Positions 6,163 through 10,271 of a stretch of DNA of 41,597 nucleotides are shown in pieces. The position numbers and the translations under genes were made by a program. The stretch comes from a virus (taxonomy: Duplodnaviria; Heunggongvirae; Uroviricota; Caudoviricetes): IMG/VR virus record IMGVR_UViG_640753023_000007, one strand, 5' to 3'. The notes beneath the pieces are model-generated. The model did not search any database. It saw only the letters and a list, made by a program, of their open reading frames with translations, and was not told where the DNA came from. Within the stretch, counting starts at the first letter, position 1. The number at the start of each line of letters is the position of its first letter.

Positions 6163-6744
6163 ATGAACAACTCATGGTGGCAGGAACTAATGCATTTTTT
6201 CCTGCAAGGAATGACACTTAAACAGTTGATTCATATGCTAATCATCCTGATCATATTGATTATTGTTATGCCGGTAAGCGTAAAAGAATGGATAAACCTG
6301 CATAATCCAGAAATCCTTCCTCATTACTGGATGTATTACATCCTGTTGTTTTGCGTTAGCTATGTGCTTAACGGCGTTGTTAATTCCGCTTATCACGCTG
6401 TGACTGAAAGAATTGAGGTATTCGCTGCTCAGAAGCGCAAATCTAAAGAAGAAAAATATGTGCAAGATTTGTTTGATTCGTTAACTCTTGGAGAAAGAGC
6501 GTATTTGGCATTCGCTGTAGCCGCTAATAACCAGCTACAAACGGAAAAGGGCGCTCATGAATCAATTTCATTGCTCAAAAAAGGACTCCTCGTTCGAAGG
6601 CCTCCTGCTGTTGGATATCCTGATACCGACCGTTTCGTTATCCCTGAAAGCTATAGACATGAGTGCTACATTAGGTTTGCCGGGAAGGCAGACAGCCTTA
6701 TGGATGAACTTATCGCTCAGGATAAGCATGGCAAAAACAAGTAA
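6163..6744 (+). CDS. sieB: SieB superinfection exclusion protein
   Basis: 193-aa plus-strand ORF with hydrophobic N-terminal region (LIHMLIILIILIIVMPV) matching lambda SieB; opposite orientation to flanking genes, as in lambda. Confidence 0.9.
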   Translation: MNNSWWQELMHFFLQGMTLKQLIHMLIILIILIIVMPVSVKEWINLHNPEILPHYWMYYILLFCVSYVLNGVVNSAYHAVTERIEVFAAQKRKSKEEKYVQDLFDSLTLGERAYLAFAVAANNQLQTEKGAHESISLLKKGLLVRRPPAVGYPDTDRFVIPESYRHECYIRFAGKADSLMDELIAQDKHGKNK

Positions 6745-6760
6745 TTAGCAAATGAATTTA

Positions 6761-7033
6761 TCATCTCGCCGTCAGTTGTTTTGATTTCCGGTAGCCTGCC
6801 GCGTAAAGAGCTACGTTCGGAAGACAAGTTGAACCTTCATATTTTCTGGTCAACGTTGTCAGAGTTATCACTTCTGCTCTCATTGCTGGTTTGAGCTTGC
6901 ATTGCAAGACCACTCGTGAAGGGGTTGGCCTGTGTAGCTTGTCGGAGCTGATCGCCTCCTGACTTTGCAGATTTGCGCGACGAGCTCTACGGCGAGAAGC
7001 TGCGGTGCCTTTAAATTCTGTTTTTCTGGACAT
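6761..7033 (-). CDS. N: Antitermination protein N (933W/H-19B-like type, not lambda N)
   Basis: Track ORF 6761-7105; start taken at internal Met (MSRKTEFKGTAASRRRARRANLQ, arginine-rich motif) preceded by GGGAGG at 5-nt spacing; C-terminus CLPNVALYAAGYRKSKQLTAR resembles N of 933W-type phages and P22 gp24. Confidence 0.8.
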   Translation of the reverse strand: MSRKTEFKGTAASRRRARRANLQSQEAISSDKLHRPTPSRVVLQCKLKPAMRAEVITLTTLTRKYEGSTCLPNVALYAAGYRKSKQLTAR

Positions 7034-7131
7034 GGATTCCTCCCGAATAAACTTTGGCGATGCAATCTCGAAGCTCCTCCTGAGACGGTTGCTTCGGCAT
7101 TGCATCCCACAGCTTATGTGGTTGGGTGATC

Positions 7132-7300: not shown

Positions 7301-7438
7301 TAGTGTTGTTTTTTAGCGTGGATGTATTGCCTCGGCGATGTAAGGAGAGATCAGAATTGCGTGGTTTAGTGGGTTGCATCTATTTATTTTTCAATAAATA
7401 TAATTGGTTATGTGTTTTTAGGTGGGCGAACGTGAGGC

Positions 7439-7466
7439 AAAGAAAACCCGGCGCTGAGGCCGGGTT
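7439..7466 (-). terminator. Intrinsic terminator ending the cI-orfA-orfB transcript (analogous position to lambda tIMM)
   Basis: Minus-strand hairpin AACCCGGC-(loop)-GCCGGGTT followed by TTTTCTTTG, starting 3 nt after the orfB stop codon. Confidence 0.65.
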
Positions 7467-7469
7467 GTA

Positions 7470-8222
7470 TTATGCTGCAAGTCTCTTAACCCAAGTCTCT
7501 CTTTTGGAGAATGGTAGAACTTGGCTTGATTCATGGAAGAGTAAGGAGAGTTGTTGCATTTGATCACCAATTGCTTCGCTGTCTATAACAACAAATCTGT
7601 TGTTATACTCCTCACTTGAAGCTTTAAGATCAATTAGTTTCCCAAGCAATGAGTAAGCACTATTCCAGCTTCCTCCGTGTTTCACGCTTGATGTAAAAAC
7701 GTATTTAGGTATGTCGGTTTTTATTGTTACAGGGACGGTAATTTGATGTCCACTCAAGCCATATACGTTTTCACGAAGAGAAAGTGCGTCTCTAAGCTCT
7801 GTGTGATATAGATAATCAATAACCATACTTTCAAACTTTTCAGCTTGAACTGGCTGATACCAGTCTAACGACAAAGTTGATGCGAGTATACCAGCTCTAA
7901 TTATGTTCGATGTAATCGCACCGACATCCTTTTCTGTTGCCCAAGCAATGATTTCTCCTCGAGCATTGAGTTCTGCGCCTTCTTTAAGCAGTAATTGTCG
8001 TATCTCATCAAGTCGTTTTTTGGTAAGCGAGATCCCTCTTGCCTCCATATTCATTAAGGCATCGCATCTGTCACTAACTAAATACCTACCATTGACTTCA
8101 CGGATAAAGGCACCGACATGCTCTCCATCATCACAGTAAGTGAATGGACTGATAATTCTCAAGGTCTTGCCTATTGGATGGCATTCGAAACCTAGTTGTG
8201 AGATCACTGTTGAGCACATCAT
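7470..8222 (-). CDS. Hypothetical protein orfB (250 aa), second gene of the cassette in the rexAB position
   Basis: Long ORF with ATG start overlapping the orfA stop (ATGA); no transmembrane segment or catalytic motif recognised by eye; AT-rich relative to flanking genes; followed by a terminator. Confidence 0.65.
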   Translation of the reverse strand: MMCSTVISQLGFECHPIGKTLRIISPFTYCDDGEHVGAFIREVNGRYLVSDRCDALMNMEARGISLTKKRLDEIRQLLLKEGAELNARGEIIAWATEKDVGAITSNIIRAGILASTLSLDWYQPVQAEKFESMVIDYLYHTELRDALSLRENVYGLSGHQITVPVTIKTDIPKYVFTSSVKHGGSWNSAYSLLGKLIDLKASSEEYNNRFVVIDSEAIGDQMQQLSLLFHESSQVLPFSKRETWVKRLAA

Positions 8223-8776
8223 ATTCCAAACCCCATTTGCCCCGACTCATCTTCAAGCGGTAAAGGTATTCTCCCAGAGTAAGTTATGTTCAGATGTTTA
8301 CAGAAGTAATTCCAATACCCTACCAGGTCATCTGGGTTTATGTCATCTTCGATTGGAAACGCTATTCTATCACTATAGTATCCAGCTTCTTCATAGTATA
8401 CATGGTAGTGAGCACCGTAAATGATATCTTGGTACTTCGGATGATCGACCTTGTAACTATTCGTGTGTTTGTCAAAGTGATAGGTATCTACCGCGAAAAC
8501 CCTCTTGTTATGATAGAAAGCAATAATATTTATTTTAGGGTAAGAAATCGGGTCATCAGGTTCTGAATCCTGATCTGGTTTCCATTTCAGTTCAAACTTT
8601 AGCCCTTGTATAGGTATACAATCCTCATCCAAGGGGATGATATGGGCTTGTAGCCACATATCAGAGCGACTTGGTTTCTGTTTCCATTTAACGCCAGAAA
8701 AGTTAACTATTTTTTTACAATAAAGTACTTTATCAACTTCTACTTGGCTTGGCTGATAATCATCTATTTTTGCCAA
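8219..8776 (-). CDS. Hypothetical protein orfA (185 aa), first gene of the cassette directly downstream of cI
   Basis: ORF bounded upstream by an in-frame stop; first possible start is TTG at 8776 (next in-frame ATG is 39 codons in); acidic, Tyr/His/Trp-rich; no motif recognised; AT-rich. Confidence 0.55.
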   Translation of the reverse strand: MAKIDDYQPSQVEVDKVLYCKKIVNFSGVKWKQKPSRSDMWLQAHIIPLDEDCIPIQGLKFELKWKPDQDSEPDDPISYPKINIIAFYHNKRVFAVDTYHFDKHTNSYKVDHPKYQDIIYGAHYHVYYEEAGYYSDRIAFPIEDDINPDDLVGYWNYFCKHLNITYSGRIPLPLEDESGQMGFGI

Positions 8777-8815
8777 TGTTTACCGCCCTGTAAATTGTAG
8801 ATAAAAGTGGTTTCA

Positions 8816-9469
8816 TCACCCAAACGTCTCTTCAGGCCATTGGCTGGCGATAACTTTCCCCACAACGGAACAACTCTCATTGCATGGGATCATTGGGTAT
8901 TGTGGGTTTAGTGGCTGTAGAAACACCTGACCGCTATCCCTGATCAGTTTCTTGAAGGTAAATTCATCACCACCAAGTCTGGCTATGCAGAAATCGCCGG
9001 GCTCAACAGCTTGCTCAGGGTCAACCAGAATTAACATCCCGTCAGGAAAGCTGGGTTTGGAACCTGTTGGTGCGGTCATTGAGTTACCTTCAACCTCAAG
9101 CCAGAATGCAGAGTCACTGGCTTTTTTGGTTGTGCTTACCAATCTCTCCGCATCGCCTTTGGTAAAGGTTCTGAGTTCTGGAGAGAACATCCCAGCCTGA
9201 ACATGAGAAAAAACAGGGTACTCATATTGTTTTTTAACTGGGGCCGATGAGTATTCGCCAACAGGTGAAAATGTCCCGTCGTGGTTGAATGATATGTTAT
9301 CAATACCAAGGTATTTAAACACCACACCAATATCACTAAGAGATGGATGACGAGATCCGCGCAACCAGTGTCCAATCCCACCCTGCGTCATACCTAGCTC
9401 TTCGGCTAACTTCTCTTGAGTTATGCCGAGCTCTTTCATTCTGGATCTAGCCAGTTCATACCATTTCAT
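8816..9469 (-). CDS. cI: CI-type prophage repressor (HTH domain plus LexA/S24-like autocleavage domain)
   Basis: Track ORF 8816-9517; N-terminal HTH ([23 protein letters not shown]) and C-terminal S24-peptidase-like region (WLEVEGNSM ... FKKL); start placed at Met with AAGGA 7 nt upstream (9469); 9475 also possible. Confidence 0.85.
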
Positions 9470-9585
9470 TTTCATGTCCTTATTATTACGCTCTGTACTG
9501 GAACCATCCATGCACAATGTGTATTTTTACTTGTATTCGCAAAGTACATATTGTATTTTTTATTCGTGTTTACTATGGAGGGCAT
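9470..9585. promoter_or_regulatory. Divergent pRM/pR promoter and OR operator region
   Basis: 116-bp AT-rich intergenic region between divergent cI and cro; contains AAGTACATATTGTATTT (9542-9558), matching the reverse complement of the OL-region motif at 14 of 17 positions, plus a 9-bp palindrome CACAATGTG. Confidence 0.5.
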
Positions 9586-9857: not shown

Positions 9858-9942
9858 GTTCCAAGATATCTGACCAACTAAGGCCATATGCGTTTCCACG
9901 CATACCTTTCAACTAACTATTCACTATTGGAAATCTTAAGAA

Positions 9943-10239
9943 ATGGAAAGAACAAGTTACAGCAAACTATCACAGCGTGACGTTGATCGCGCAGAAACAG
10001 ATTTACTTATCAATCTGTCAGCTATTACCCAGCGCGGTCTGGCAAAGATGATTGGCTGTCATGAATCGAAGATAAGCAGAACGGACTGGAGATTTATTGC
10101 TTCGGTCTTGTGTGCTTTCGGAATGGCATCAGACATCAGTCCGATTAGCAGGGCTTTTAAGTATGCGCTTGATGGACTCACCAATAAAAAACGCCCGGCG
10201 GCAACCGAGCGTTCTGAACAAATCCAGATGGAATTCTGA
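9943..10239 (+). CDS. cII: CII-like transcriptional activator
   Basis: 98-aa ORF; C-terminal segment TNKKRPAATERSEQIQMEF matches lambda CII, N-terminal part divergent. Confidence 0.8.
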   Translation: MERTSYSKLSQRDVDRAETDLLINLSAITQRGLAKMIGCHESKISRTDWRFIASVLCAFGMASDISPISRAFKYALDGLTNKKRPAATERSEQIQMEF

Positions 10240-10271
10240 GGTCATTACTGGATCAATCCACAGGAGTCATT

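What the first reader, a model, noticed from the sequence alone, without database searches (positions are those of the whole stretch)
8217..8780. orfA appears to use a TTG start; orfB is translationally coupled to it
The orfA reading frame is closed by an in-frame stop immediately upstream of the TTG at 8776, and the first in-frame ATG is 39 codons downstream. So orfA either starts at a non-ATG codon (low translation) or is N-terminally shorter than the ORF suggests. The orfB ATG overlaps the orfA stop (ATGATG), so orfB output would follow orfA translation. Low, coupled expression is typical of toxic effector pairs.
Basis: seen in the sequence. Interest (0 to 1): 0.4.

Follow-up and report, generated by a model that had tools for sequence, protein, structure and literature searches.

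The report
Weak-start two-gene cassette behind prophage repressor
The TTG is almost certainly the real start of a 185-residue protein, and nearly all relatives also avoid ATG, but the gene pair itself (a prophage passenger behind the repressor gene, computationally predicted to be an anti-phage system) is already annotated this way and has not been tested.

Summary
On the minus strand the sequence reads TAA (8782-8780), ACA, TTG (8776-8774). The first in-frame ATG is codon 40 (8659-8657). The orfA stop and the orfB start share ATGA (8222-8219).

- Codons 2-39 evolve like coding sequence and hold two residues invariant across the whole family (K22, W31).
- The internal ATG is not conserved, and one homologue has no in-frame ATG at all.
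- In 18 homologues (25-71% identity) the aligned start is GTG in 12, TTG in 4 and ATG in 2, although four-fold sites are near saturation.

The stop/start overlap is also conserved, but it is common: 14 of 61 same-strand gene pairs in this phage have it.

The pair sits between the cI repressor and an intrinsic terminator, where lambda carries rexAB. Related phages carry other cargo at that site. OrfA has no recognisable fold but a conserved D/H/N/H/H cluster. OrfB is DUF1828 plus a nuclease-like DUF1829 domain without a conserved catalytic triad. Both exact proteins are listed as predicted novel defence genes by DefensePredictor (2026) but were not screened.

RefSeq already annotates the TTG start. 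The toxic-effector reading is plausible but unproven. Interest is modest.

The parts
8816..9511 (-). cI-type prophage repressor (HTH_3 + Peptidase_S24), the gene immediately upstream in the same orientation
   Evidence: Pfam HTH_3 at 2e-10 and Peptidase_S24 at 1e-28. RefSeq annotates 696 nt as a LexA family protein. It has almost no SD (rank 69 of 72). A TAAAAT hexamer lies about 11 nt upstream of the ATG, which suggests a leaderless or short-leader PRM-type mRNA as in lambda. That last step is inference.
8783..8789 (-). Shine-Dalgarno-like AGGGCGG, 6 nt upstream of the TTG
   Evidence: Read from the sequence. Anti-SD duplex energy is -7.9 kcal/mol, rank 21 of 72 phage genes. Most close homologues have a weaker SD instead, -3.1 to -3.3.
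8780..8782 (-). In-frame TAA that closes the orfA frame two codons upstream of the TTG
8774..8776 (-). TTG initiation codon of orfA
   Evidence: It is the only ATG/GTG/TTG before codon 40. The aligned codon is GTG, TTG or ATG in 12, 4 and 2 of 18 homologues. RefSeq, GenBank and other annotations all start here.
8219..8776 (-). orfA, 185 aa, soluble and acidic (WP_001062368.1). PHROG 2017; weak and partial similarity to DUF6978 / PDC-M24A.
   Evidence: Family scans. AF2 model has pLDDT 82 and pTM 0.81, is beta-rich, and its N-terminal helix 11-19 and strand 22-25 are confident. No solved or viral fold match. Family-wide invariants are K22, W31, R92, D97, N106, G121, H123, H125, F158 and P173.
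8657..8659 (-). First in-frame ATG (codon 40), not a conserved start
   Evidence: This column is Leu or deleted in many homologues. L004 has no in-frame ATG anywhere in orfA.
8217..8222 (-). ATGATG junction, where the orfB ATG (8222-8220) overlaps the orfA TGA (8221-8219)
   Evidence: TATGATGTGCTCAA is invariant in 13 loci. An overlap is retained in most distant homologues.
7470..8222 (-). orfB, 250 aa, soluble (WP_000968518.1). N-terminal DUF1828 domain with a YbjN / type III chaperone-like fold, and a C-terminal DUF1829 domain with a PD-(D/E)xK-like fold.
7435..7466 (-). Intrinsic terminator (8-bp GC-rich stem plus T run) directly after orfB. It marks the end of the immunity operon and the right edge of the swappable cassette.
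   Evidence: Sequence from about 7468 to 7402 is shared with many lambdoid phages that carry other cargo.

Best explanation
Start codon. orfA is translated from the TTG at 8776 into a 185-residue soluble protein. A non-AUG start is a conserved, probably selected property of this gene family. It would keep OrfA synthesis low.

Coupling. orfB has only a weak SD of its own, and its ATG overlaps the orfA stop (ATGA). It is therefore most likely translated largely by ribosomes that terminate on orfA, which ties OrfB output to OrfA output.

Expression. The two genes form a self-contained cassette inserted between the stop codon of the prophage repressor cI and the immunity-region terminator. That is the position of rexAB in lambda. 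They would be made at low level in lysogens from the repressor-maintenance transcript.

Function. The most likely role is a lysogen-expressed anti-phage (exclusion or abortive-infection) module. OrfA carries the only enzyme-like conserved cluster (D97, H104, N106, H123, H125). OrfB (DUF1828 plus a DUF1829 nuclease-like fold without a conserved catalytic triad) would be its partner, sensor or regulator.

What is shown: the sequence anatomy, the conservation of the N-terminus, of the non-ATG start and of the overlap, the hotspot position, and the fold of OrfB.

What is inferred: low translation, dependence of orfB on orfA translation, co-transcription with cI, the defence function, and which protein is the effector.

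My confidence by step: TTG start about 0.9; selection for a weak start about 0.6; defence function about 0.5; OrfA as effector about 0.35.
For: TTG start:
- Homologues of 183-187 aa cover 100% of the query and share the N-terminus MAKxDDYxPSQxEVD. M1, A2, K3, D6, P9, Q11, V14, D15, L18, K22, W31 and K34 are invariant at 59-71% identity.
- K22 and W31 stay invariant down to about 22-25% identity.
- Divergence by codon position for codons 2-39 is 0.26 / 0.195 / 0.569. For the rest of the gene it is 0.242 / 0.153 / 0.56.
- The AF2 model places residues 11-25 in confident secondary structure.
- The PHROG 2017 profile aligns from residue 2.

Conserved weak start:
- GTG 12, TTG 4, ATG 2 among 18 homologues.
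- Four-fold degenerate sites differ in 64-66% of pairwise comparisons.
- TTG lineages are scattered on the tree, so weak codons were exchanged at least three times, while ATG appears at most twice.
- The background in the same phage is 62 ATG in 72 CDS.
- Another cassette at the same site (HK542) uses ATG with a strong SD, so the weak start belongs to the family, not to the site.
- The trait also holds outside prophages (L021 in a chromosomal context).

Coupling:
- The ATGA overlap and TATGATGTGCTCAA are invariant in 13 loci, and an overlap is retained in L016, L017 (13 nt), L019, L022, L023, L028 and L029.
- The orfB SD ranks 48 of 72.

Operon and hotspot:
- A 39-nt gap follows cI, with no terminator before the one at 7466-7445.
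- The flanks are shared with phages that carry other cargo at this site, namely two other genes in HK542 and a BRO protein in EPEC.
- In 11 of the 13 homologous loci whose upstream neighbour could be read (of 18 in all), the pair follows a repressor-type gene: HTH plus S24 in eight, HTH only in L009 and L010, judged from a conserved 3' end in L004 and L005.

Defence:
- PDC-M24B matches at 4.7e-10 and PDC-M24A at 4.8e-4. PDC systems are untested candidates found embedded in BREX, DISARM or type I RM systems.
- DefensePredictor lists WP_001062368.1 (log-odds 4.9-5.4) and WP_000968518.1 (5.6) as predicted novel defence genes.
Against: - There is no expression, toxicity or phage-challenge data for this pair. 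It is absent from the tables of screened and validated units in the DefensePredictor paper.
- In this window the SD is not weak, so net initiation strength is unknown.
- The homologues share ancestry, so 16 of 18 is not 16 independent events.
- L022 shows that an ATG start is tolerated.
- 4-nt overlaps are common (14 of 61) and do not prove coupling.
- No significant RNA structure sequesters either start (z -1.27 and -0.38).
- Matches to DUF6978 and PDC-M24A are below threshold and partial.
Confidence: 0.6

Rival explanations
1. orfA is really a shorter, 146-residue protein that starts at the internal ATG (codon 40, 8659-8657). The upstream 39 codons would be untranslated leader.
For: No direct initiation data exist.
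Against: Codons 2-39 show the divergence pattern of coding sequence. They contain the family-wide invariants K22 and W31. The model folds them with pLDDT about 92. Met40 is Leu or deleted in many homologues. L004 has no in-frame ATG in the whole gene, and in L016 the first is at codon 181.
Confidence: 0.03
2. The TTG start is real but not selected. It would be a neutral trait inherited from a GTG-starting ancestor, and the overlap would be ordinary phage gene packing. Neither would say anything about dosage control or toxicity.
For: The homologues share ancestry. Non-ATG starts make up 14% of this phage's annotated CDS. 23% of same-strand gene pairs overlap by 4 nt. L022 uses ATG. The window's SD is fairly good.
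Against: The first base of the start codon stayed G or T in 16 of 18 sequences, while four-fold sites are 64-66% different. It changed between G and T at least three times, yet the single G-to-A transition that creates ATG is seen at most twice. Most close homologues combine GTG with a weak SD.
Confidence: 0.25
3. The pair is not an anti-phage system. It could be a toxin-antitoxin-like addiction module that stabilises the prophage, or an accessory factor for the phage's own lysogeny or lytic regulation.
For: It is a two-gene overlapping operon expressed with the repressor. A DUF1829-containing protein is proposed to act as the antitoxin-like partner in HipAD. No defence phenotype has been shown.
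Against: The site is a cargo-swap hotspot and not core phage machinery. The pair also occurs outside prophages (L021; L029 next to a resolvase). Relatives (PDC-M24) were found embedded in BREX, DISARM or RM systems. DefensePredictor scores both genes as defensive. A TA-type defence system would satisfy both this reading and the defence reading.
Confidence: 0.2
4. The TTG is a sequencing or assembly error for ATG.
For: None beyond the a priori rarity of TTG.
Against: 239 of 240 complete E. coli genomes with the cassette, and five independently sequenced phages, have the identical sequence.
Confidence: 0.01

Closest known systems
Lambda rexA-rexB (Rex exclusion system in the cI immunity operon)
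   Same: A two-gene cassette directly downstream of cI, on the same strand, ending at the immunity-region terminator. It would therefore be expressed in lysogens with the repressor. This is the classic site for a prophage-encoded exclusion or abortive-infection module (position shown; the function of Rex is from established knowledge).
   Different: There is no sequence relationship. The Pfam scan at E <= 0.1 gives only DUF6978 and DUF1828. Neither protein has a transmembrane segment, whereas RexB is a polytopic membrane protein. From my memory of the lambda record, and not tested here, rexA and rexB do not overlap and rexA starts with ATG.
PADLOC candidate PDC-M24 (untested two-gene 'phage defence candidate', Payne et al. 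bioRxiv 10.1101/2024.01.29.577857)
   Same: The same two-protein architecture: a DUF6978-like A protein followed by a DUF1828-type B protein. The B protein matches the PDC-M24B profile over its full length (4.7e-10).
   Different: The A protein matches only over residues 104-163 at E 4.8e-4. The genomic context here is a prophage immunity region, not embedded in BREX, DISARM or type I RM. PDC-M24 itself has no experimental support.
HipAD / DS-6 (DeWeirdt et al., Science 2026, PMC13092281)
   Same: It contains a DUF1829 (PDDEXK-clan) domain in the non-enzymatic partner protein of a validated two-gene E. coli defence system.
   Different: The partner is a HipA-type kinase, not an OrfA-like protein. 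DS-6B has DUF3037 rather than DUF1828 at its N-terminus. No sequence match to OrfB was tested.
Alternative cargo at the same site in phage HK542/HK244
   Same: Two genes with a 4-nt ATGA overlap between the conserved cI 3' end and the conserved terminator/PL region.
   Different: The proteins are unrelated, and the first gene starts with ATG behind a strong SD (GCAGGAG).

Membership tests
Pfam DUF1828 (PF08861), for OrfB | Score above Pfam's gathering cut-off (22 bits) | tested here: met
   33.5 bits, E 5.3e-8, residues 26-110. RefSeq names the protein as DUF1828 domain-containing.
Pfam DUF1829 / PD-(D/E)xK clan, for the OrfB C-terminal domain | Restriction-endonuclease-like alpha-beta-beta-beta-alpha-beta fold | tested here: met
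Pfam DUF1829 / PD-(D/E)xK clan, for the OrfB C-terminal domain | Conserved catalytic D...(D/E)xK residues | tested here: not met
   Invariants of the C-domain across 25-84% identity are G155, S157, G158, P164, W186, D198, P237 and W244. H159 and K173 vary, and no acidic triad is seen. This rests on alignment only, without a structural superposition of active sites.
Pfam DUF6978 (PF22398), for OrfA | Score above the gathering cut-off (29.6 bits) | tested here: not met
   22 bits, E 2.2e-4, and only residues 104-164 against profile positions 81-133. 7 of 16 family members give similarly weak hits, the best at 1.1e-4.
PADLOC PDC-M24 | Both proteins match the A and B profiles, and the genes are adjacent on one strand | tested here: inconclusive
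   B matches at 4.7e-10 over the full length. A matches at 4.8e-4 and only in part. Adjacency is met. PADLOC's own score thresholds are not available here.
Lambda Rex system | Homology to RexA and RexB, with RexB a multi-pass membrane protein | tested here: not met
   No RexA or RexB family hit in Pfam or PHROGs. The maximum 19-residue Kyte-Doolittle hydropathy is 0.45 for OrfA and 1.19 for OrfB.
Lambda Rex system | Location downstream of cI within the immunity operon | tested here: met
Validated anti-phage defence system (any) | Experimental reduction of phage plating | not testable with these tools
   Only predictions exist: DefensePredictor log-odds 4.9-5.6. The pair is absent from the tables of screened units, plaquing assay quantification and validated systems, S6-S8.
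Type II toxin-antitoxin module | One product toxic, neutralised by direct binding of the other | not tested
   No multimer prediction or experiment was possible.

The most novel reading that the evidence does not exclude
The near-universal GTG/TTG start of the A gene, together with stop/start coupling to the B gene, could be a functional part of a new two-gene immune system and not mere dosage trimming. Initiation at non-AUG codons is especially sensitive to IF3 and to the state of the translation apparatus. Phage takeover of translation could therefore shift OrfA output, or the OrfA:OrfB ratio, and trigger an OrfA enzyme of a fold with no solved relative.
Probability: 0.1. Interest if true: 0.6.

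Novelty: new member of a known kind. Interest (0 to 1): 0.3.

Why it matters
At face value the finding is a routine annotation point. RefSeq already starts this gene at the TTG, and the overlap with orfB is ordinary phage gene packing.

The useful result is the family-level pattern. A small, uncharacterised two-gene cassette has kept a weak start codon on its first gene and a stop/start overlap with its second, down to 25% identity. It rides the repressor transcript of lambdoid prophages in about 4% of complete E. coli genomes (240 of 5,426), including the probiotic Nissle 1917 and the type strain.

That marks expression level or stoichiometry as the thing to manipulate when the pair is tested. 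Two independent computational screens flag it as a defence candidate, but nobody has assayed it. Cloning it behind a strong promoter and RBS, or "repairing" the start to ATG, may be toxic or misleading.

Tried and rejected
RNA structure
- I looked for structure that might sequester the orfA or orfB start. The folds are not better than shuffles (z -1.27 and -0.38). I did not pursue covariation.

Internal promoter
- The scan found 5 promoter-like sites against 6.3 expected, which gives no support.

Fold of OrfA
- Foldseek against viral models gave no hit at E <= 0.001.
- The AFDB library was unavailable.

Sequence searches
- Profile searches of both proteins against PDB sequences found nothing.
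- NCBIfam found nothing.

OrfA as an HNH or His-Me nuclease
- I considered this because of the D/H/N/H/H cluster. It is not supported by the predicted secondary structure, which has no beta-beta-alpha unit, or by any fold match, so it is left open.

OrfB as an active PD-(D/E)xK nuclease
- The fold is supported, but a conserved catalytic triad was not found.

Literature
- Searches for DUF1828, DUF6978, PDC-M24 and the two WP accessions found no functional study.
- Bury et al. 2018 on Nissle prophage 3 concerns a different gene.

Sequencing error
- Rejected.

Full report
**What is in the sequence**

The minus strand of 7400-9520 carries three genes in a row:
- A cI-type repressor at 8816-9511, with HTH_3 and Peptidase_S24 domains.
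- orfA at 8219-8776, 185 codons.
- orfB at 7470-8222, 250 codons.

A GC-rich hairpin with a T run follows at 7466-7435.

- The orfA frame is closed by TAA at 8782-8780, then ACA, then TTG at 8776-8774.
- No other ATG, GTG or TTG occurs in frame before the ATG at codon 40 (8659-8657).
- The orfA TGA (8221-8219) overlaps the orfB ATG (8222-8220), and a second ATG follows.

The only correction is that the stop lies two codons upstream of the TTG, not directly next to it.

**Where the window comes from**

- The region is 100% identical to Escherichia phages ev017, ev207, PhiR57_1 and PhiR63_2.
- It is also identical to prophages in E. coli ATCC 11775 and Nissle 1917.
- The cassette is present at 99% identity or more in about 240 of 5,426 complete E. 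coli genomes.
- 239 of those 240 are identical over the 63 nt around the TTG, so this is not an error.
- RefSeq/PGAP and the GenBank submitters all annotate orfA from this TTG, as WP_001062368.1, 185 aa.

**Is TTG the start, or the internal ATG?**

- A search of 5.8 billion proteins returned 21 proteins at E <= 0.001. The 17 full-length homologues I aligned are 183-187 aa, 59-71% identical, and cover the whole query.
- The N-terminus MAKxDDYxPSQxEVDxxLYCKK is among the best-conserved parts of the alignment.
- An exhaustive HMMER scan of 1.84 billion cluster representatives found only 16 matching representatives. The distant ones (25-49% identity) mostly also align from their first few residues.
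- In an alignment reaching about 22-25% identity only ten columns are invariant. Two of them, K22 and W31, lie in the disputed first 39 codons.
- Pairwise divergence at codon positions 1, 2 and 3 is 0.26, 0.195 and 0.569 for codons 2-39. It is 0.242, 0.153 and 0.56 for the rest of the gene. This is the same signature of purifying selection on a protein.
- The AlphaFold model (pLDDT 82, pTM 0.81) puts residues 11-25 in a confident helix and strand.
- Met40 is Leu or deleted in many homologues.
- The Izhakiella homologue has no in-frame ATG anywhere in the gene.

The short-protein alternative can be set aside.

**The start codon across the family**

I recovered DNA for 18 distinct homologues. 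They come from Izhakiella, Yersinia, Xenorhabdus, Providencia, Klebsiella, Salmonella, Buttiauxella, other Enterobacteriaceae, and metagenomic contigs.

- The aligned start is GTG in 12 and TTG in 4 (this window, L019, L021, L028).
- It is ATG in 2 (L022 and L029).
- L029 is doubtful. Its annotated protein is N-terminally short. An in-frame TTG ten codons upstream, behind GGGGGG, would restore the conserved N-terminal helix. That reassignment is my inference.
- Four-fold degenerate sites differ in 64-66% of pairwise comparisons, so silent sites are close to saturation.
- On a neighbour-joining tree the TTG lineages are scattered. Weak codons were therefore exchanged at least three times, while the single transition that would give ATG is seen once or twice.
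- The background in the same phage is 62 ATG, 8 GTG and 2 TTG.
- An unrelated two-gene cassette at the same site in phage HK542 starts with ATG behind a strong SD. The weak start therefore belongs to this gene family and not to the location.
- It also holds where the pair is not in a prophage (L021).

This argues for selection against a strong start. It is not proof, because the sequences share ancestry and one clear ATG exists.

The SD picture is mixed. Most close homologues combine GTG with a weak, distant GGA (-3.1 to -3.3 kcal/mol, against a phage median of -6.2). The E. coli version combines the weaker TTG with a better SD (AGGGCGG, -7.9, rank 21 of 72).

**Coupling to orfB**

- The junction TATGATGTGCTCAA is identical in 13 loci.
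- Most distant members keep a stop/start overlap: 4 nt in general and 13 nt in L017.
- L021 is an exception, with a 10-nt gap and a proper GAGGTGG SD.
- The orfB SD in this window is weak, rank 48 of 72.

This is the classic termination-reinitiation geometry, and its conservation is real. It is also commonplace, since 14 of 61 same-strand neighbours in phage ev017 overlap by exactly 4 nt. Predicted RNA folds around either start are no better than shuffled controls. Coupling is therefore likely but not demonstrated.

**Genomic role**

- The DNA specific to this cassette runs from just after the cI stop codon to the terminator.
- The flanks (the cI 3' end, and the terminator plus downstream sequence) are shared with many lambdoid phages that carry other cargo there. 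Examples are two different genes in HK542/HK244, a BRO protein in an EPEC prophage, and single hypothetical genes elsewhere.
- In 11 of the 13 homologous loci whose upstream neighbour could be read (of 18 in all), the pair follows a repressor-type gene. Where the downstream flank was read in prophages, an N-type antiterminator usually follows.
- There is no terminator and no supported promoter between cI and orfA.
- The cI gene has essentially no SD, and a -10-like TAAAAT lies about 11 nt upstream of its ATG. This resembles the leaderless PRM transcript of lambda.

Co-transcription of cI, orfA and orfB in lysogens is thus the natural inference. The cassette sits where lambda carries rexAB.

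**The proteins**

OrfA (21.8 kDa, pI 5.3, no transmembrane segment):
- There is no PDB or NCBIfam sequence match.
- It has only sub-threshold, partial similarity to DUF6978 and to PADLOC PDC-M24A.
- Its deep invariants (R92, D97, H104, N106, G121, H123, H125) look like a metal-binding or catalytic cluster. No activity can be assigned.

OrfB (28.1 kDa, pI 5.9):
- It is a confident two-domain model (pLDDT 84.7).
- Across the family no D...(D/E)xK triad is conserved. The domain may bind rather than cut.

**What is known**

- PDC-M24 is one of 145 untested "phage defence candidates" found by their embedding in BREX, DISARM or type I RM loci.
- The supplementary tables of DeWeirdt et al. (Science 2026, PMC13092281) list exactly WP_001062368.1 and WP_000968518.1 as "Predicted novel defense gene", with log-odds 4.9-5.4 and 5.6. 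The entries come from an ECOR-set genome and from the 3,000-genome set.
- Neither accession appears in the tables of units selected for screening, plaquing assay quantification or validated systems.
- The same paper validates HipAD, whose non-kinase partner contains DUF1829 and is proposed to act like an antitoxin.
- No paper in the searchable library treats DUF1828, DUF6978 or these accessions functionally.

**Verdict**

The TTG start is real by strong comparative evidence, and it is already the annotated start. The "toxic effector pair" label remains a hypothesis. The best reading is a Rex-position, lysogen-expressed candidate defence cassette whose dosage is held down at the level of translation initiation. 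It is a new, untested member of a familiar class and is of modest interest.

Noticed in passing
window 9943-10239 (+), primers at 9897-9915, 10140-10157, 10246-10267: The 'phage repressor (pr)' gene EcN_1294 of E. coli Nissle 1917 prophage 3 was reported to give about 200-fold protection of MG1655 against lambda and stx phages (Bury et al. 2018, PMC5987069). Its published primers map onto the cII-family ORF here, not onto the cI repressor. The window is therefore identical or nearly identical to Nissle prophage 3 in this region.
   Followed up: partly
window 9509-9545 (-): The cI gene has essentially no Shine-Dalgarno sequence (rank 69 of 72 genes). A TAAAAT hexamer lies about 11 nt upstream of its ATG. 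This suggests a leaderless or very short-leader PRM transcript, as in lambda.
   Followed up: partly
window 7402-7468 and 8814-8900: The cI 3' end and the terminator region are shared at 92-97% identity with lambdoid phages and prophages that carry different cargo between them. HK542/HK244 have two other overlapping genes, an EPEC prophage has a BRO-family gene, and other strains have single hypothetical genes. This is a cargo-swap hotspot whose junctions sit at the cI stop codon and the terminator stem.
   Followed up: partly
window 8205-8222 (-) and the same junction in L004-L016, L019: The first codons of orfB (ATG ATG TGC TCA AC) are identical at the nucleotide level, silent positions included, in 13 loci. 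Elsewhere four-fold sites differ in about 64% of comparisons. This may be a nucleotide-level constraint on reinitiation. Cys3 of OrfB is also invariant, together with C14.
   Followed up: no
window 6163-6744 (+) and about 6761-7105 (-): A sieB-type superinfection-exclusion gene sits on the opposite strand next to the N-antiterminator region. It is a second exclusion-type gene within 1.5 kb of the orfA/orfB cassette.
   Followed up: no
L025 (phage ev017) 22049-25498 and 45281-46423: The identical phage ev017 carries a sitABCD iron/manganese transporter operon and an ompC-like porin gene as further cargo. I did not check whether these lie inside the window.
   Followed up: no
L029 2660-2700: In this metagenomic homologue the annotated ATG start gives an N-terminally short protein. 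An in-frame TTG ten codons upstream, preceded by GGGGGG, would restore the family's conserved N-terminal helix. The start is probably mis-called.
   Followed up: partly
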